The translations under genes and the position numbers were made by a program. A DNA stretch of 40,848 nt from a virus (taxonomy: Duplodnaviria; Heunggongvirae; Uroviricota; Caudoviricetes). Numbering within the stretch: position 1 is the first letter of the stretch; each line of letters starts with the position of its first letter. This document shows, piece after piece, positions 19,701 through 28,380 of the stretch. The notes below the pieces were generated by a model. That model made no database searches and was not told where the DNA came from. It saw only the letters and a list, made by a program, of their open reading frames with translations. The stretch lies in the IMG/VR virus record IMGVR_UViG_2778261067_000009. One strand, given 5' to 3'.

Positions 19701-20444
19701 GGGATTGAGGATGCTGATGGCCAGACGCTGAGCAATATTCTGCTGCAGGCGGACCGTATTGCGATGATTACCCCGGAGAACGGCAACACCACGCCGCTGT
19801 TTGTGGCGCAGGGGAATCAGCTGTTTATGAACGACGTGTTCCTGAAGCGACTGTTTGCAGTGAGCATCACCTCGTCCGGCAATCCCCCGACGTTCTCCCT
19901 GACGCCGGAGGGCAGGCTGACGGCCCGCAATGCGGACATCAGCGGACATATCAGTGCGAACTCGGGCACGCTGAATAATGTCGTGATAGCGGAGAACTGC
20001 ACGATAAATGGCACGCTGAAAGCGGAGAACATTATTGGTGATCTGGTGAAATGTGCCGGGGTGGCTTTTCCGGTGGATGGTAGTCACCTTGCGAACGGTA
20101 CACTAACGCTGACGGTGTATGACGATCACAGCTTTGACCGGCAGATTATAATCCCGCCGATAATCTATGTCGGGTCAAAACAGGAATCCCGCACCAGTAA
20201 TGACATCTGGACAGAGTGCTTCCTGCATGTTGATCAGAACGGACGCCGGATTTATTCAGGCAGGTCAGTGGCAGAGCCGGGAATTTTCAGCGGGATCATC
20301 GATATGCCAGCTGGCGGTGGTCATATCACCCTGAGTTTTACCGTGAGCTCACGGCGTCAGAATAACAGTTGGGGCAGTTCACGTATCAGTAACCTTCAGG
20401 CGATAGTGGTGAAGAAAAACAGCGCGGGGATCAGCATCCGCTGA
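16758..20444 (+). CDS. J: Tail tip/central fibre protein J (host specificity)
   Basis: [22 protein letters not shown]...; long stretches match lambda J ([65 protein letters not shown]); GTG start 16758 with AGGAGAGG upstream. Confidence 0.95.
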
Positions 20445-20642
20445 ACATCGCGCCCCGGGATTGCCGGAAGGAGACAAAAACCGTACAGTATGCGCGGGTG
20501 CCTTTGGCTGATGGCCGGAGGGAACACCTGAAGGCCTGATGTGAAAAGGCCCCGGACAAAACATTCATGTTTAACCCGAGGCCTGACCATTCATCCTAAG
20601 CAAGTGAAAGGTTAGCGCCTCTCCGTAAAAGGAGCAAGCGTT

Positions 20643-20783
20643 ATGTCGCAAAAACCGTTAAAAACCACCGTGATTTGTATCACGGTAGTGCTCATTATCT
20701 GGATCAACCACAGTTCACTGTGCGAGTTCCGGTTCCGGATAGCGGGCGCGGAGATTGCGGCGTTCTTACAGTGTAAGCGGTAA
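20643..20783 (+). CDS. hok: Hok/Gef-family type I toxin (46 aa membrane peptide)
   Basis: [48 protein letters not shown] segment plus LCE.RFR....E.AAF motif as in HokB/HokC; AAGGAG RBS 7 nt upstream. Confidence 0.7.
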
Positions 20784-20879
20784 GAAACCGTGGCGGAGGA
20801 GTGTACCTTTCCCGCCGACCGGTTGCTGAGGGTGATCAGCCGGATGGCACCTTTTTAACATCAATAAATCACAAATTTA

Positions 20880-20913
20880 CCGCAGGCCGGGAAACCGGTC
20901 CTGCGGTTTTTTT
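20880..20913 (+). terminator. Rho-independent terminator between hok-like gene and tail fibre gene
   Basis: CCGCAGGCCGGGAAACCGGTCCTGCGG followed by TTTTTTT. Confidence 0.65.
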
Positions 20914-20926
20914 ATGGAGGAAATCC

Positions 20927-22195
20927 ATGGCAGTCAGAATATCGGGTGTGCTGAAGGACGGGGCCGGTAAGCCGGTACCGGGATGCACGATAGAGCTGAA
21001 AGCGCGCCGCACAACGGAGACGGTGATTGTCACCACGGTGGCGTATGGTCAGCCGGGGGAAACCGGCAGTTACAGTATGGATGTTGAGCCGGGGTTGTAC
21101 CGGGTGACGCTGAACACGGAAGGGTACGCGCCGTCATATGTGGGTGACATTCTGGTGAAGGCGGAGTCTGCACCGGGAACGCTGAATAAATTTCTGATGG
21201 ACCTGGAGGACGCACAGTATTACCCGAAAGCCCTTGCAGAGCTGGAAGCGGTGGCCGCGGAAATCCTGAAACGTGCGGAAGCGTCAGCGGCGAGTGCAGA
21301 GGAAGCGAAGAAACGGGCAGAGAATGCGCGGGGACCGAAGGGTGATAAGGGAGACACGGGGCCACAGGGTATTCCCGGGCCAAAAGGCGATACCGGCGAG
21401 CGTGGGCCAAAGGGTGAGCGTGGTGAGGCAGGCCCACAGGGGGTACAGGGGCCACGGGGTGAAACCGGACCCGTGGGACCGCAAGGAGAGGCGGGTATTC
21501 AGGGGCCTGCTGGCCCTGCGGGCCCGCGGGGTGAAACCGGAGCCAGAGGCGAAAAAGGAGAGCCGGGAGATCCAGGAGGACCTCCGGGACCAAAAGGTGA
21601 CACTGGCCCCAGAGGGGAGCCGGGGCCTCAGGGCCCGGCAGGTCCGAGGGGACCTGCCGGAGAGAGAGGGCCGCAAGGATTGCAGGGTGTGGCAGGGGAG
21701 AGAGGCGATACAGGTCCGGCTGGTCCACAGGGTATACCTGGACCTCCGGGGCCAACAGGTAGCGTCGGTCCTAAGGGGGAAAAAGGCGAGCCTGGTGATC
21801 GAGGTCCACAGGGTGCTACCGGCCCCAGAGGACCACAAGGGGAAAAAGGGGATAAAGGTGACCCCGGCCCGGCAGGCCCTGCCGGTGAGCGGGGGCCGAA
21901 AGGTGATACCGGGCCGACGGGCCCCGCAGGGAAGGATGGCGCAGATTCACAGGCGAACAGAGTGCGTATCAGCGAGAAAACAGAAGTCACCTCCAGCACA
22001 GTCGTTTTCCCCTCTTTTTATGGCGGTGCGCATGGGGAAAATGCAGCCCCTGATGGCGCTGTGATTCTGAATATCAGGACGGCTCAGGTATCACTGACGA
22101 ACGGCAATTTAGGGGAAGCCTGTGTCACTGCTGTCACTTACGGCTTCCTTCAGGTTCACGATGGCAGCCAGTGGGTTACGGTGAAACATGAATAA
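20927..22195 (+). CDS. stf: Side tail fibre protein with collagen-like Gly-X-Y repeat shaft (lambda Stf-like N-terminus)
   Basis: N-terminus [28 protein letters not shown] matches lambda Stf [28 protein letters not shown]; ~200 aa of G-X-Y triplets; GGAGG RBS; start at 20927 inside the longer ORF. Confidence 0.85.
21332..21940 (+). repeat. Collagen-like Gly-X-Y triplet repeat region within the tail fibre gene (one single-residue interruption at GGPPGP)
   Basis: ~67 consecutive G-X-Y triplets rich in Pro/Lys/Glu; produces spurious long ORFs in other frames and on the opposite strand. Confidence 0.85.
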
Positions 22196-23560: not shown

Positions 23561-23592
23561 AAATTTGCTATTAACTCTTTGAATATTCAGCA

Positions 23593-24456
23593 CTAATCAT
23601 CTATTTCGGTTGCCTTCTTATTCAGCAGACGAGAAGCGCGCCAGTAAACCAGCAACATCAGGCCCATTACGATAGTCAGCGTAATGCTGGTGGCTGCACC
23701 AAACGGCCAGTCACGAATATTGAGGAACTGTACCTTGATGACGTTACCGATCAGCAGGTTTTTCGCACCGCCCATCAGGTCGGACACATAGAACAGGCCC
23801 ATCGCTGGCAGCATTACCAGCAGACATCCGGCAATAATTCCCGGCATCGTCAGTGGGATAATGATGCGGATGAAGGTCTGCAACTTGCTGGCACCGAGAT
23901 CGCGCGCCGCCTCAAGCAACGGCTTATCCAGTTTTTCGATACTGGAGTACAGCGGCATCACCATAAACGGCAGCAGAATGTAAACCAGACCGATAATCAC
24001 CGCACTAGGCGTGAACATGATGCGAATTGGTGTATCGATAACGCCCAGCCAGAGCAAAAACTCGTTGAGATAGCCTTTGGTGCTGAGGAAAATTTTCAGC
24101 CCGTAAATACGAATCAATGAGTTGGTCCAGAACGGAACAATCAGCAGAAACAGCAGCAGCGGACGCACCTTGTGTGGCAGCTTCGCCAGAAACCAGGCAA
24201 AAGGATAGCCCAGCACCAGGCAGGCGAGGGTGGCGATCAGCGCCATATTCAGCGAGTGCAATAGCACTTCAAAATAAAGCGGATCGAGCAGACGCGTGTA
24301 GTTATCCAGCGTAAAGACCATTTTGACGAAACTGGCGTCGTCGCGGGTCAAAAAGCTGGTGCCAATGATCATCAGGTTGGGCAGAAAGACAAACAACACA
24401 AGCCAACCGACAATAGTGACAATCACTACATTCTGGAACTTACTTGTGTTCTTCAT
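23593..24456 (-). CDS. potB: Spermidine/putrescine ABC transporter permease PotB
   Basis: Full-length match to E. coli PotB as recalled; overlaps potA stop; followed on the - strand by ATGATT then divergent sequence where potC should start. Confidence 0.95.
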
Positions 24457-25576
24457 CAGCCAGTACGACCTCCCAGCTTTCTACCCAATTAATGGCCATT
24501 TTTTGGTCGAGAGAGTGGTCAAAGTCAGGATCGTCTTCATTGAAGAATTCGCTGACCATCACCATCTTGCCATTTTCCAGTTCAACAACCGACTCCAGCG
24601 TCATACCTTTGTAGTTACGCTCGCGAACGTAACCAATCAGCCCTTCAGCGTGGTTGTCGTCGTTAATCTCTTCAACACGTAAGTCTTCCGGGCGCAGCAG
24701 AACATGCAGTTTTTGCCCCGGTTCAACGCCGAAGTTAACGTAGATATTACACTCGCGGCCTTCAACGTTGGCGCGTACGCGCTGCTCGTCGAGACGTTCG
24801 ATGACCGTGGCATTAAACATATTGATTTCACCGATAAACCCAGCAACAAACAGGTTTTTCGGCTCTTCGTAGATTTCACGCGGCGTGCCGTCTTGCTCAA
24901 TGCGACCATCGCGCATCACCACAATCCTGTCCGACATGGTGAGTGCTTCTTCCTGGTCGTGAGTCACGAAGACGAATGTAATGCCAAGCTTACGCTGTAG
25001 CGCTTTCAGCTCGTTCTGCATCTGTTTACGCAGTTTGTAATCCAGCGCTGAGAGCGACTCATCCAGCAACAACAGACGAGGCTTGTTAACCACCGCGCGA
25101 GCAATGGCGACGCGTTGCTGTTGACCACCAGAAAGCTGATGCGGTTTACGTTGAGCGAAGGTTTCCAGCTGCACCATCCGCAGGGCTTCCATCACGCGGG
25201 GCGTAATTTCAGCTGCGGGGGTTTTTTGCATGCGCAACCCAAAGGCCACATTTTCGAACACGGTCATGTGGGGGAAAAGTGCGTAGCTTTGGAAAACAGT
25301 GTTCACATAGCGGTTTTCCGCCGGAACGTGGGTGATGTCCTCGTTATCCAGCATGATGCGTCCGGAATCAACAGTTTCCAGACCTGCAATCAGGCGAAGA
25401 ACGGTTGTTTTACCGCAGCCAGAAGGGCCAAGCAGCGTGAGGAACTCGCCATTGTTGATAGTCAGATCCAGCTGGGGAATGACCTCTTTACCATCAAAGC
25501 ATTTGCGAATTCCCGCCAATTGCACCAGCGGTGAAAGCGAACTCGGTTGTTTATTCAATTTTTTACTCTGTCCCAT
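24440..25576 (-). CDS. potA: Spermidine/putrescine ABC transporter ATPase PotA
   Basis: 378 aa; Walker [13 protein letters not shown] signature [14 protein letters not shown]; matches E. coli PotA. Confidence 0.97.
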
Positions 25577-25825
25577 GTAAACGCAACGGATGGCTTACCG
25601 ATGCGGGGTTTGTGGTTAACCACCTTGGTGACTCTTAATGAGGGCGGTAATTCTACGGCAAACCGCTTGAATCGCCAATCTTTGTTGTGAATTACTGGCT
25701 TAGCTTTATATTCATTAAGGTAATGCTGATAAATATTCCCGCTTGCAGGGGTAAAAGTGACCTGACGCAATATTTGTCTTTTCTTGCTTCTTAATAATGT
25801 TGTCACAAAAAGTGAGGGTGACTAC

Positions 25826-27052
25826 ATGGATAAACTACTTGAGCGATTTTTGAACTACGTGTCTCTGGATACCCAATCAAAAGCCGGGGTGAGACAGGTT
25901 CCCAGCACGGAAGGCCAATGGAAGTTATTGCATCTGCTGAAAGAGCAGCTCGAAGAGATGGGGCTTATCAATGTGACCTTAAGTGAGAAGGGCACGTTGA
26001 TGGCGACGTTACCGGCTAACGTCCCAGGCGATATCCCCGCGATTGGCTTTATTTCTCATGTGGATACCTCACCGGATTGCAGCGGCAAAAATGTGAATCC
26101 GCAAATCGTTGAAAACTATCGCGGTGGCGATATTGCGCTGGGTATCGGCGATGAAGTTTTATCACCGGTTATGTTCCCGGTGCTGCATCAGCTACTGGGT
26201 CAGACGCTGATTACCACCGATGGTAAAACCTTGTTAGGTGCCGATGATAAAGCTGGTATTGCAGAAATCATGACCGCGCTGGCGGTATTACAACAAAAAA
26301 ACATTCCGCATGGTGATATTCGTGTCGCCTTTACCCCGGATGAAGAAGTGGGCAAAGGGGCGAAACATTTTGATGTTGACGCCTTCGATGCCCGCTGGGC
26401 TTACACCGTTGATGGTGGTGGCGTAGGCGAACTGGAGTTTGAAAACTTCAACGCCGCGTCGGTCAATATCAAAATTGTCGGTAACAATGTTCACCCGGGC
26501 ACGGCGAAAGGAGTGATGGTAAATGCGCTTTCGCTGGCGGCACGTATTCATGCGGAAGTTCCGGCAAATGAAAGCCCGGAAATGACAGAAGGCTATGAAG
26601 GTTTCTATCACCTGGCGAGCATGAAAGGCACCGTTGAACGGGCCGATATGCACTACATCATTCGTGATTTCGACCGTAAACAGTTTGAAGCGCGTAAACG
26701 TAAAATGATGGAGATCGCCAAAAAAGTGGGCAAAGGGTTACATCCTGATTGCTACATTGAACTGGTGATTGAAGACAGTTACTACAATATGCGCGAGAAA
26801 GTGGTTGAGCATCCGCATATTCTCGATATCGCTCAGCAGGCGATGCGTGACTGCGATATTGAGCCGGAACTGAAACCGATCCGCGGTGGTACCGACGGCG
26901 CGCAGTTGTCGTTTATGGGATTACCGTGTCCGAACCTGTTCACTGGCGGTTACAACTACCATGGTAAGCATGAATTTGTGACTCTGGAAGGTATGGAAAA
27001 AGCGGTGCAGGTGATCGTCCGTATTGCCGAGTTAACGGCGCAACGGAAGTAG
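25826..27052 (+). CDS. pepT: Peptidase T (tripeptide aminopeptidase)
   Basis: [21 protein letters not shown]... matches E. coli PepT; start at ATG 25826 with GAGGGTG RBS inside the longer ORF. Confidence 0.95.
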
Positions 27053-27058
27053 CGAAAA

Positions 27059-27084
27059 GGGATGCGGCATGTGATGCCGCATCC
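27059..27084. terminator. Stem-loop between convergent pepT and roxA (likely bidirectional terminator)
   Basis: GGATGCGGCA-TGTGA-TGCCGCATCC palindrome in the 47 bp gap between convergent genes. Confidence 0.5.
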
Positions 27085-27099
27085 AGCTTAACTTCAAAC

Positions 27100-28221
27100 T
27101 TACCCTTCGAAGAACCAATACCCGCTATTGACCAGCGCCGCGAGCATCGCGAGGAATGACGGATCTTCCAGCGCATCGCCAAAATTCTCCGCGGTCAGCG
27201 CAATGTTGCTGGCGAGCGCATCCAGTGCCGGACGGTGCGGGGAATCGATCTTCTCACCATTGGCATACACGTCGTCGCCAATGCGCAATACGCGCAGACC
27301 ACCCAGACGCACCAGCACATCACCTTGTTTCAGCGCATCGTAGATTTCATCCGGCTGATAAGGCGGCTCTGGCGGCGCGATATCCAGTTCATGACGTGAC
27401 TGGGATATAAACTCGCCAAACCATTGCTTAAAGTGTTCCGGCTGGTTGATCAATTCGAGCATCATCTCACGCAGTTTATCCATCTCTTGCGGCAGAACGT
27501 CCGCAGGATGAGCGCGAGGTGGAACATCAGGATCGCTGTAGTAGTTGCCGCCCAGTTCACGTTGCAGCACATAATCGGCAAATCCGCTAATCAGTTCCCG
27601 CGTATTTGGCGCGCGAAAACCCACGGAATAGTTCATCGCATTTTCCAGCGCGTAGCCTTCATGGGGGAATCCTGGCGGAATATAAAGAATATCGCCTGGC
27701 TCCAGTTCTTCATCAATGATGGCTTCGAACGGATCGACCTGTAACAGATCCGGGTGCGGGCAGTGCTGTTTCATTTGCAGCTTTTCGCCCACTCGCCAGC
27801 GACGACGTCCGGTACCCTGAATGATAAACACGTCGTACTGATCGAGATGTGGGCCGACGCCGCCGCCAGGTACGGAAAAAGAGATCATCAGGTCATCAAT
27901 ACGCCAGTCCGGCAGTTCACGGAACGGCCGCATCAGCGAGGCGCTCGGCTCATGCCAGTGGTTCACTGCCTGTACCAGTAACGACCAGTTGGTTTCACCG
28001 AGATGATCGTAGCTTTCGAACGGGCCGTGGCTGACCTGCCATTTGCCATCCTGGTGACTGACCAGTCGACTGTCGACTTCGCTTTCCATCGCCAGACCCG
28101 CCAACTCGTCTGGAGAGATCGGGTCAATAAAATTATTAAAGCCGCGTTTTAACACCACCGGGCGTTTCTGCCAGTGACGTTCAAGAAAATCGGGCCAGTT
28201 AAGAGTGAGTTGGTATTCCAT
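27100..28221 (-). CDS. roxA: Ribosomal protein uL16 arginine hydroxylase RoxA (YcfD), JmjC/cupin
   Basis: MEYQLTLNWPDFLERHWQKRPVVLKRGF... matches E. coli YcfD/RoxA; start taken at the Met that gives 373 aa. Confidence 0.9.
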   Translation of the reverse strand: MEYQLTLNWPDFLERHWQKRPVVLKRGFNNFIDPISPDELAGLAMESEVDSRLVSHQDGKWQVSHGPFESYDHLGETNWSLLVQAVNHWHEPSASLMRPFRELPDWRIDDLMISFSVPGGGVGPHLDQYDVFIIQGTGRRRWRVGEKLQMKQHCPHPDLLQVDPFEAIIDEELEPGDILYIPPGFPHEGYALENAMNYSVGFRAPNTRELISGFADYVLQRELGGNYYSDPDVPPRAHPADVLPQEMDKLREMMLELINQPEHFKQWFGEFISQSRHELDIAPPEPPYQPDEIYDALKQGDVLVRLGGLRVLRIGDDVYANGEKIDSPHRPALDALASNIALTAENFGDALEDPSFLAMLAALVNSGYWFFEG

Positions 28222-28380
28222 GTTAAGCATCCACAGGCTGGTATCTGCAACCGATTATAACGGATGCTTAACGTAATGCGTGAAGTATGGACATATTTTA
28301 TCAATTAGTGTTTTTTGCCGTTTCATAATGTTTCAGATTGTTCATTATGTTTTTGATTATAAACAGATTTGTGATTTTCC

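What the first reader, a model, noticed from the sequence alone, without database searches (positions are those of the whole stretch)
20445..20913. Hok-family type I toxin gene between J and the side tail fibre gene, with no obvious mok frame
A 46 aa peptide with the Hok/Gef TM segment and the LCE.RFR....E.AAF motif is inserted with its own RBS and terminator between J and stf. The ~200 bp upstream leader should encode the antisense Sok-like RNA and fold-back elements, but I find no upstream overlapping mok-like reading frame with a start codon, so translational control may differ from plasmid R1 hok/sok. On a prophage it could act in maintenance or abortive infection.
Basis: partly seen in the sequence, partly recalled or inferred. 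Interest (0 to 1): 0.5.

Follow-up and report, generated by a model that had tools for sequence, protein, structure and literature searches.

The report
Prophage hok/sok toxin–antitoxin module lacking mok
Between the tail-tip gene J and the side tail fibre gene, this prophage carries a small self-contained toxin/antisense-RNA cassette of the well-known Hok/Sok type; it is a close cousin of the studied hokW-sokW cassette of Shiga-toxin phages and, like that cassette, has no "mok" leader reading frame.

Summary
The ORF at 20643-20783 (+) encodes a 46-aa Hok/Gef peptide (Pfam PF01848, 40.5 bits against a cutoff of 22; PHROG 251, E 6.5e-21). It lies in a complete hok/sok-type cassette, 20461-20913, between J (stop codon ends at 20444) and the tail fibre gene (ATG 20927).

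Every RNA element of the plasmid R1 paradigm can be placed:
- a promoter and a 5' tac box;
- a long 5'-3' fold-back (tac/fbi), supported by compensatory changes;
- a ucb:GAGG hairpin and a Sok-target hairpin with a YUNR loop;
- a 3' protective hairpin and a terminator;
- on the opposite strand, a promoter plus terminator for an antisense RNA of about 59 nt.

No ATG/GTG/TTG (or CTG/ATT/ATC/ATA) reading frame runs from the leader into the hok ribosome-binding site. This holds across the clade. It also holds for hokW-sokW of Sakai prophage Sp5 and phage 933W (63% aa identity), which has been shown experimentally to be a working toxin-antitoxin pair.

So this is a new member of a known, already annotated family. 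The modest novelty is a family-wide mok-less architecture. RNA folding suggests Sok could close the hok start site directly. In this window that signal is weak, and it is untested.

The parts
20461..20489 (+). Predicted hok promoter: -35 TTGCCG (20461-66), 17-nt spacer, -10 TACAGT (20484-89); +1 about 20496
   Evidence: Read from the sequence. The same geometry is seen upstream of hokW (TTGCCC/17/TAAATT) and of the P2-like phage copy (TTGCCG/17/TAGATT). Similarity to those loci begins at about 20460. The consensus scan found no strong sigma-70 site, so the promoter is inferred from position and conservation only.
20496..20913 (+). Predicted full-length hok mRNA (about 418 nt)
   Evidence: The Rfam RF01794 match starts at 20496 at model position 1. 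MFE -178.4 kcal/mol, z = -8.2. The ends are predicted, not mapped.
20496..20516 (+). tac box (GGGUGCC...) and extended 5' arm of the fold-back
   Evidence: Pairs with 20832-20852 in the full-length fold. In alignment A2 the helix is 94% paired, with 5 pairs changed on both sides. The first 9 bases are invariant in 29 sequences.
20545..20553 (+). ucb / anti-SD (AAAGGCCCC): pairs with the GAGG region in the full-length form and with tac in the 3'-trimmed form
   Evidence: MFE structures of full-length and truncated RNA. The tac-ucb helix is 89.5% paired across A2.
20567..20599 (+). 10-codon stub (ATG ... TAA) in the R1-mok phase; no SD upstream
   Evidence: In sister alleles (L011, L014, L029) the same ATG reads through for 69 codons, but most alleles have a stop. 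Judged incidental.
20578..20621 (+). Sok-target (sokT) hairpin: GAGGC...GCCUC base, variable upper stem, loop with a YUNR motif (CUAA). GAGG 20578-81 is the counterpart of the mok SD; ATT 20589 occupies the place of the mok ATG
   Evidence: Folds at -20 kcal/mol and forms in the truncated mRNA. The equivalent hairpin is found in all 29 relatives, with compensatory changes in the upper stem. Compared with hokC and R1.
20584..20610 (.). Hypervariable recognition segment (upper sokT stem and loop = single-stranded 5' tail of Sok)
   Evidence: Among 25 otherwise near-identical J-stf copies, diversity peaks here, with 5 distinct alleles.
20544..20602 (-). Predicted Sok-like antisense RNA, about 59 nt: 18-nt single-stranded 5' tail, GC-rich hairpin, U tail
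   Evidence: Fold -22 kcal/mol. Same size and position as the annotated 59-nt SokC of K-12, with a homologous terminator stem. Expression not tested.
20609..20637 (-). Predicted sok promoter: -35 TTGCTC (complement of 20632-37), 17-nt spacer, -10 TAACCT (complement of 20609-14)
   Evidence: Sequence. AGGTTAGCGCC and the CAA of the -35 are invariant or nearly so across A2. hokW has TTGACT/18/TAACCT at the same place.
20613..20643 (+). Hairpin that closes the hok start site (UAGCGCC-UCUCC ... GGAG-CAAGCGUUA), enclosing the SD and the A of the AUG
   Evidence: Pairing probability is 0.91 in full-length RNA, 0.02 in truncated RNA, 0.58 with the Sok site blocked and 0.82-0.91 in a 3' cleavage product. 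93.5% paired across A2, with one-sided changes only.
20629..20634 (+). hok Shine-Dalgarno AAGGAG
   Evidence: Sequence.
20643..20783 (+). hok-family toxin gene, 46 codons plus stop
   Evidence: Intact in all 60 distinct relatives collected. dN/dS is 0.19-0.67.
20786..20824 (+). 3' stem-loop expected to protect the trimmed mRNA
   Evidence: helix 18: 94% paired, 6 pairs changed on both sides.
20832..20852 (+). fbi and extended 3' arm of the fold-back (core GGCACC 20846-51)
20878..20913 (+). Intrinsic terminator (12-bp stem, U7), 14 nt before the tail-fibre ATG

Best explanation
IDENTITY (high confidence). The interval 20461-20913 is a self-contained hok/sok-type type I toxin-antitoxin cassette of the hokW-sokW subfamily (PHROG 251). 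It is a moron sitting in the J-stf gap of a lambdoid prophage. A weak constitutive promoter is predicted to make a stable mRNA of about 418 nt. Its 5' end (tac) pairs with its 3' end (fbi), which locks the RNA shut. In that state the Sok-target loop is masked by the 3' UTR, and the hok SD and AUG sit in a hairpin. A convergent promoter inside the leader is predicted to make a Sok-like antisense RNA of about 59 nt, complementary to leader positions -98 to -41.

MECHANISM (inferred by analogy with R1 and from folding). Slow 3' trimming removes fbi. Then tac pairs with ucb, and the GAGGC...GCCUC target hairpin forms. That hairpin takes up the UAGCGCC arm that was closing the hok start site.

DIFFERENCE FROM R1 (shown). 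There is no mok reading frame, so Sok cannot act by blocking mok translation.

WORKING MODEL (about 0.4 on its own). Sok binding to the 5' arm and loop of the target hairpin, or RNase III cutting of that duplex, releases the 3' arm. The 3' arm then refolds onto the hok SD/AUG. Repression is therefore direct and structural, and is reinforced by mRNA decay.

BIOLOGICAL ROLE (inferred from hokW). When Sok is lost, for example on prophage induction when late transcription runs through the cassette, the peptide is made and helps lysis and phage release. It could also stabilise the prophage.
For: Peptide: Pfam PF01848 above cutoff; PHROG 251, E 6.5e-21; 63% identical to HokW. PGAP names the gene 'Hok/Gef family protein' in 119 or more E. 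coli genomes that carry the same J-hok-stf arrangement.

RNA: the Rfam hok-leader model hits with E 2.5e-10. The fold has z = -8.2. The full-length and truncated folds reproduce the R1-type two-state switch. On 29 relatives the structure is 85% paired, against 36-46% for slid controls. Compensatory changes occur in the 5'-3' fold-back, in the helix between the target loop and the 3' UTR, and in the 3' hairpin.

Antisense: a Sok-like tail-hairpin-U-tail RNA of 54-60 nt is predictable in 26 of the 28 distinct sequences of A2. It is collinear with the annotated SokC.

No mok: with positive controls. The Sakai Sp5 hokW locus is identical to 933W and also lacks mok. PMC8621323 nevertheless shows that HokW is toxic, that sokW neutralises it, and that HokW is made from the native locus after mitomycin C.

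Relay: across 29 relatives the mean probability of the start-site-closing helix is 0.81 (full-length), 0.32 (truncated) and 0.81 (truncated with Sok bound). The opening energies are 12.5, 10.2 and 12.7 kcal/mol. For hokW itself they are 11.8, 7.2 and 11.6.
Against: No transcript ends, toxicity or antisense expression were measured for this locus.

The Rfam score is below the gathering threshold (50.7 < 59), and both promoters match the consensus poorly (one search found none).

The relay is purely thermodynamic. In this window the opening energy of the start site changes by only about 1 kcal/mol (11.4, 10.4, 10.5), because the AUG is also predicted to pair with codons 38-41 in all states. Several relatives (L007, L029, L044, L057) show no predicted switch. 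The closing helix shows only one-sided changes and no compensatory pairs.

For hokW, RNase III and Hfq were only partly required, and how translation is repressed was left open.
Confidence: 0.8

Rival explanations
1. A cryptic mok equivalent exists. Under this view hok translation is still coupled to a short leader ORF, and Sok blocks that ORF. Two candidates end at UAG 20613-15, on the 5' arm of the closing hairpin, so a terminating ribosome could unmask the hok SD. One is the 24-codon GTG ORF 20541-20615, which has an SD-like GAAGG at 20530-34. The other is an 8-codon ORF from AUU 20589, which sits 7 nt after GAGG at exactly the place of the mok AUG.
For: Both ORFs lie in the Sok-complementary region. 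The GTG ORF is also present in hokW of 933W and Sp5. AUU occupies the position of the hokC and R1 mok ATG. In R1, mok only has to be translated up to the hok SD.
Against: Neither ORF is conserved. The GTG is replaced (GGAAAGACG, AGAAAAGCG, CCACTGG) in at least 7 of 29 representatives, and its frame shifts in the P2-like copy. AUU is present in only one of the five alleles of the recognition segment. Only 17 of 43 distinct leaders have any canonical-start ORF reaching the SD, and those starts are scattered. Both candidate ORFs stop 27 nt before the hok AUG.
Confidence: 0.15
2. Sok acts only through mRNA destruction. Duplex formation recruits RNase III (and then RNase E), and the hok mRNA is removed. 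Sok binding has no specific effect on the structure of the start site. Translation of the trimmed mRNA is simply constitutive and direct from the strong AAGGAG SD.
For: RNase III contributes to sokW antitoxin activity. The duplex would be about 59 bp. In this window the predicted change in start-site opening energy on Sok binding is negligible.
Against: sokW still protected substantially in an rnc mutant, and the authors concluded that another repression mechanism exists. In most relatives, hokW included, the closing helix is predicted to re-form on Sok binding.
Confidence: 0.25
3. The cassette is a decaying, silent remnant. Under this view mok has been lost, so Hok can no longer be translated, as proposed for several K-12 chromosomal hok loci. 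The gene would have no current function.
For: In R1, loss of the mok start or premature mok stops abolish toxicity. Many truncated 'Hok/Gef' fragments of 25-31 aa exist in databases. A mok-phase frame is still open for 59 codons without a start.
Against: The Hok ORF is intact in all 60 distinct relatives, with dN/dS of 0.19-0.67. The RNA helices keep compensatory changes. The antisense recognition segment is diversifying rather than decaying. The equally mok-less hokW is toxic, Sok-controlled and expressed from its native locus.
Confidence: 0.07

Closest known systems
hokW-sokW of Sakai prophage Sp5 / phage 933W (Takada et al. 2021, Toxins 13:796, PMC8621323); PHROG 251
   Same: A 46-codon ATG ORF with the same MSQK...AAFLQCK ends. 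It is 63% identical at the protein level, and the best nucleotide-level relative (the P2-like copy) is about 80% identical over 20460-20802. All RNA elements are collinear: tac, ucb, GAGG, target hairpin, UAGCGCC closing arm, 3' hairpin and fbi. It has the same sok promoter position and the same absence of mok. It is also a moron in the late/tail region of a lambdoid phage, downstream of lom.
   Different: The genomic slot differs: here J-stf, there lom-orf in a short-tailed Stx phage. About 37% of residues differ. The Sok recognition segment is different, so cross-regulation is unlikely. This copy has its own strong terminator, whereas the hokW copies show no similar stem after fbi in the alignment. 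Function was tested only for hokW.
hok/mok/sok of plasmid R1 and hokC/mokC/sokC of E. coli K-12
   Same: Hok/Gef peptide fold class. A stable, highly folded mRNA with 5'-3' end pairing and a two-state switch after 3' trimming. An antisense RNA of about 60 nt against the leader, 40-100 nt upstream of hok. A GAGGC...GCCUC target hairpin with a YUNR loop (R1 mechanism as summarised in PMC9841398).
   Different: R1 and hokC have an ATG 8-9 nt after GAGG, at -57, opening a 69-71-codon mok frame that runs across the hok start. Here that position is ATT followed by stops, and no frame reaches the hok SD. The peptide is 46 aa rather than 50-52 aa. It falls below the NCBIfam HokA and Hok-subfamily cutoffs.
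Leader-ORF-independent type I systems controlled by mRNA structure (tisB/istR-1 standby site; H. pylori aapA/IsoA)
   Same: The toxin mRNA is made inactive and is activated by processing. The antisense binds in the 5' UTR, away from the toxin SD, and acts through RNA structure and RNase III (own knowledge; aapA3 parallel noted in PMC9841398).
   Different: There is no sequence relationship. This is an analogy for how a mok-less hok might be controlled, not a family assignment.

Membership tests
Hok/Gef peptide family (Pfam PF01848) | Profile score above the curated gathering threshold | tested here: met
   40.5 bits against a cutoff of 22, E 2e-10, residues 10-44.
Hok/Gef peptide family (Pfam PF01848) | Short peptide with an N-terminal hydrophobic helix, then the conserved SLCE motif and an E-x-AAF tail | tested here: met
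   Residues [14 protein letters not shown], then SLCEFRFR...AEIAAF. S25, C27, E37, A39, A40 and F41 are invariant in alignment A1.
Hok/Gef peptide family (Pfam PF01848) | Membrane toxicity when expressed | not testable with these tools
   Shown only for HokW (63% identical; PMC8621323) and for 42 of 45 diverse Hok homologs (bioRxiv 10.1101/2025.08.07.668861).
NCBIfam HokA equivalog NF007290 / Hok subfamily NF007279 | Score above the curated cutoff | tested here: not met
   37 against 89 bits, and 33.2 against 73 bits. It is not an ortholog of HokA, and it lies outside the curated Hok subfamily model.
hokW-sokW subfamily (PHROG 251) | Profile match over the full length and a collinear leader | tested here: met
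   phrog_251: 75 bits, E 6.5e-21, residues 1-45. The leader aligns end to end with hokW.
hok/sok type I TA locus (R1 paradigm) | 5'-3' fold-back (tac/fbi) in the toxin mRNA | tested here: met
   Predicted in the MFE structure. 94% paired across 28 distinct sequences, with 5 compensatory pairs.
hok/sok type I TA locus (R1 paradigm) | Alternative tac/ucb pairing and a Sok-target hairpin after 3' trimming | tested here: met
   Truncated RNA folds into tac-ucb plus a GAGGC...GCCUC hairpin. These are 89.5% and 80.8% paired, and 4 pairs in the target hairpin are compensatory. This is in silico only.
hok/sok type I TA locus (R1 paradigm) | Convergent antisense gene (promoter, about 60-nt RNA, terminator) against the leader | tested here: inconclusive
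   Promoter-like hexamers at conserved positions and a tail-hairpin-U-tail RNA are found in relatives. The RNA is collinear with the annotated SokC. The consensus scan reports no promoter, and there are no expression data.
hok/sok type I TA locus (R1 paradigm) | Overlapping mok reading frame whose translation is needed for hok translation | tested here: not met
   No ATG/GTG/TTG/CTG/ATT/ATC/ATA frame from the leader reaches the hok SD. The positive controls hokC and R1-type give ATG -57.
Rfam RF01794 (sok / hok leader) | Score at or above the gathering threshold | tested here: not met
   50.7 bits against 59. The match is full-length (model 1-157) with E 2.5e-10. It is a divergent relative rather than a curated member.

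The most novel reading that the evidence does not exclude
The whole hokW clade, this locus included, is a mok-independent branch of the hok/sok family. In it the 3' arm of the Sok-target hairpin (AGGUUAGCGCCUCUCC) doubles as the anti-SD for hok. Sok binding or RNase III cleavage would then close the hok start site directly, rather than through a leader peptide. In addition, the 27-nt recognition segment is swapped among otherwise identical prophage copies, which would give each copy a private antitoxin.
Probability: 0.4. Interest if true: 0.5.

Novelty: new member of a known kind. Interest (0 to 1): 0.3.

Why it matters
hok/sok is the textbook type I toxin-antitoxin system, and its regulation is taught as obligatorily three-gene (hok, mok, sok). 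This locus and its characterised cousin hokW show that a large phage-borne branch keeps every RNA switch element but has dropped mok. That makes a concrete question testable: how can an antisense RNA that binds 40-100 nt upstream silence a toxin gene without a leader ORF? Practically, the cassette is a common moron in STEC and bovine E. coli prophages, found in 191 of 5426 complete genomes. By analogy with hokW it may affect lysis timing and phage release. As a gene find it is ordinary, because it is already annotated by PGAP and catalogued in PHROGs.

Tried and rejected
1. The Rfam gathering-threshold scan of the whole window found nothing. Only the E-value scan exposed the sub-threshold RF01794 hit.

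2. The sigma-70 consensus scan found no promoter in 20300-21000. Promoters are therefore assigned only by homology of position.

3. The 24-codon GTG ORF 20541-20615 was considered as a mok substitute. It is rejected as a conserved feature because the start is absent from at least 7 of 29 representatives and the frame is not kept.

4. ATG 20567, in the R1-mok phase, was considered as a mok start. It has no SD and lies in the stem of the ucb hairpin. It is stopped after 10 codons here and in most alleles, and reads through in only 4 of 25 subclade sequences.

5. A first test of the Sok relay, using mean unpaired probability of the start site, showed almost no change (0.46 against 0.41). Helix probabilities and opening energies gave a clearer result, but a weak one for this window.

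6. PADLOC gave no defence-system match.

7. A search for a second copy in the window found none.

8. The GTDB scan returned only 5 loci. A literature search for 'mokW' found no paper describing such a gene.

Full report
1. WHAT IS IN THE SEQUENCE

The interval lies between the end of a 1245-codon J-type ORF (stop codon ends at 20444) and a collagen-repeat tail-fibre gene (ATG 20927). It contains one ATG ORF of 46 codons, 20643-20783 (+). The ORF is preceded by AAGGAG at 20629-34. It is followed, about 95 nt later, by a 12-bp stem plus U7 terminator at 20878-20913.

The peptide is [46 protein letters not shown]. It passes the Pfam Hok/Gef threshold (40.5 against 22 bits) and matches PHROG 251 at E 6.5e-21. 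It falls below the NCBIfam HokA and Hok-subfamily cutoffs. In RefSeq, the same J / 'Hok/Gef family protein' / tail-fibre trio is annotated in near-identical form. 191 of 5426 complete E. coli genomes hold a match, and 119 hold the whole J-hok-stf arrangement, mostly bovine and STEC isolates.

2. THE CASSETTE AROUND IT

At a relaxed threshold, Rfam's RF01794 aligns full-length to 20496-20654 on the + strand (50.7 bits, E 2.5e-10, gathering score 59). The model is named 'sok', but on this strand it describes the hok leader, from +1 to the hok AUG. This fixes the likely +1 at GGGUGCC (20496). Upstream lie TTGCCG, a 17-nt spacer and TACAGT (20461-89). The same geometry precedes hokW and a P2-like phage copy, and similarity to those loci starts exactly there.

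The predicted 418-nt mRNA folds at -178.4 kcal/mol, 8.2 sd below shuffles. In that fold:
- 20496-20516 pairs with 20832-20852 (tac/fbi, core GGUGCC:GGCACC);
- AAAGGCCCC (ucb) closes a hairpin onto GAGG (20578-81);
- the future Sok-target loop is paired with the 3' UTR;
- the hok SD and the A of the AUG are enclosed in a hairpin, 20613-20643.

Removing the 3' end up to 20826-20832 switches the prediction. Tac now pairs with ucb, and a -20 kcal/mol GAGGC...GCCUC hairpin (20578-20621) presents a CUAA (YUNR) loop. This is the R1 logic as summarised in PMC9841398.

On the minus strand, TTGCTC, a 17-nt spacer and TAACCT (complement of 20609-37) would start an RNA near 20602. It would end after a GC-rich hairpin and UUUU near 20544. 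That gives 59 nt, with an 18-nt single-stranded 5' tail. The annotated SokC of K-12 is also 59 nt, lies at the same relative position and shares the terminator stem sequence.

3. COMPARATIVE EVIDENCE

I collected 60 distinct relatives from IMG/VR and GTDB and aligned 29 representatives from tac to fbi (A2).

The window-derived full-length structure is 85% paired on A2, against 36-46% when partners are slid. 31 pairs show changes on both sides. The 5'-3' fold-back is 94% paired with 5 compensatory pairs. The helix between the target loop and the 3' UTR has 6 compensatory pairs, and the 3' protective hairpin has 6. The truncated-form helices (tac-ucb, target hairpin) are 89.5% and 80.8% paired.

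26 of the 28 distinct sequences of A2 yield a Sok-like RNA of 54-60 nt with the same tail-hairpin-U-tail shape. The Hok ORF is intact in all 60, with dN/dS of 0.19-0.67.

4. THE mok QUESTION

In R1, and in an R1-type plasmid and K-12 hokC used here as positive controls, an ATG sits 8-9 nt after GAGG, at -57. It opens a 69-71-codon frame across the hok start.

In the window the homologous triplet is ATT (20589), in frame with a TAG at 20613. The frame in the R1-mok phase is open for 59 codons (20600-20776) but has no start before 20675. No ATG/GTG/TTG/CTG/ATT/ATC/ATA frame from the leader reaches the hok SD.

Across 43 distinct leaders of the clade, only 17 have any canonical-start frame that reaches the SD. 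Those starts are scattered (-103, -76, -46, -28, -5).

The hokW locus of Sakai Sp5 is identical to that of 933W over 400 nt, and it also has none. Yet PMC8621323 shows three things: HokW is toxic, sokW RNA expressed from its own promoter neutralises it, and HokW protein appears from the native prophage after mitomycin C. That paper does not mention mok for hokW. A recent survey of Hok diversity explicitly left Mok unanalysed. A search for 'mokW' found no description.

It is a property of the whole clade, and it is compatible with function.

5. HOW IT MAY WORK WITHOUT mok (INFERRED)

The 3' arm of the target hairpin (AGGUUAGCGCCUCUCC) is also the 5' arm of the hairpin that closes the hok start site.

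In the window, the probability of the UAGCGC:GCGUUA helix is 0.91 in full-length RNA and 0.02 in trimmed RNA. It is 0.58 when the Sok site is blocked, and 0.82-0.91 in a 3' fragment such as RNase III cleavage would leave.

Over 29 relatives the means are 0.81, 0.32 and 0.81. The opening energies of the start site are 12.5, 10.2 and 12.7 kcal/mol. For hokW they are 11.8, 7.2 and 11.6. This suggests a direct structural relay from Sok binding to the hok start site.

The caveats are substantial:
- in this window the energy change is only about 1 kcal/mol;
- the AUG is also predicted to pair with codons 38-41 in every state;
- some relatives show no switch;
- the closing helix has no compensatory pairs.

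I give this sub-model about 0.4. The rivals are a non-conserved short leader ORF, pure RNase III-driven decay, and a silent remnant.

6. BIOLOGICAL ROLE

Nothing here tests the role. There is no PADLOC match. The cassette sits inside the late operon with no terminator between J and its promoter. Q-antiterminated late transcription should therefore cross it head-on to sok. This is my inference. It would fit the reported RecA-dependent loss of sokW and rise of HokW on induction, and the reduced phage release without hokW-sokW. Prophage stabilisation or exclusion of other phages remains possible.

7. COMPARISON AND VERDICT

The locus works like hok/sok. It is a member of the Hok/Gef peptide family and of the hokW-like PHROG 251. 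It fails one defining feature of the R1-type locus (mok), and it misses the Rfam and NCBIfam curated thresholds.

It is best filed as a new member of a known kind: a J-stf paralogue of hokW-sokW, 63% identical. The family-wide mok-less architecture is the one point a specialist might find worth an experiment.

Noticed in passing
window 20584-20610 (and the same columns in L011-L042): Among 25 otherwise almost identical J-stf copies of the cassette, nearly all variation falls in a 27-nt block. That block forms the upper stem and loop of the Sok-target hairpin and the single-stranded tail of Sok. It has five alleles, each keeping the stem and a YUNR loop. This looks like swapping or diversifying selection of antisense specificity. 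Genomes carry up to 5 matching places.
   Followed up: partly
L002 3183-3323; L004 1501-1641; PHROG 251: RefSeq phage records and PHROGs label the 46-aa Hok peptide 'MokW-like host killing', although these loci have no mok frame. PMC8621323 gives HokW as 51 aa. The ATG ORF is 46 codons, and the frame upstream is open for only 5 more codons (AAG GAG TCA AGC GCT after a TAA), with no start codon.
   Followed up: partly
window 20496-20654 (+) against K-12 sokC (L092 453-511): Rfam RF01794, 'sok antitoxin', matches on the strand of the hok mRNA, from +1 to the hok AUG (model length 157). It does not match on the strand of the antisense RNA of about 59 nt. A hit therefore marks the leader rather than the antitoxin's orientation.
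   Followed up: no
L006 (Planococcaceae MAG UBA3378) and L007 (Vagococcus sp. WN89Y), 1501-1638: Hok loci whose peptide is identical to that of the E. coli P2-like phage copy (L002) turn up in contigs assigned to Firmicutes genomes. L006 also carries a masked N run. These are probably contaminating or mis-binned enterobacterial contigs rather than real host range.
   Followed up: no
window 20927-22195: The tail-fibre gene after the cassette is only 422 codons, and about half of it consists of collagen-like Gly-X-Y repeats. The corresponding gene in strain RM10466 is 567 codons. The repeat tract appears to vary in length between prophages.
   Followed up: no
window about 23590-28230: In the near-identical genome the prophage ends just after the tail-fibre assembly gene and abuts potB, potA, pepT and roxA. 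ORFs of matching size and strand occur in the window at about 23590-28230, but I did not check them directly. If they correspond, the hok cassette is about 3 kb from the prophage-chromosome junction.
   Followed up: no
window 20541-20555: There is a second small variable block in the subclade (GATGTGAAAAGG against GAAAGACGAAGG), immediately 3' of the predicted Sok terminator. It changes the U tract of Sok (CCUUUUCAC against CCUUCGUCUUUCC). It also removes the GTG of the 24-codon leader ORF.
   Followed up: partly
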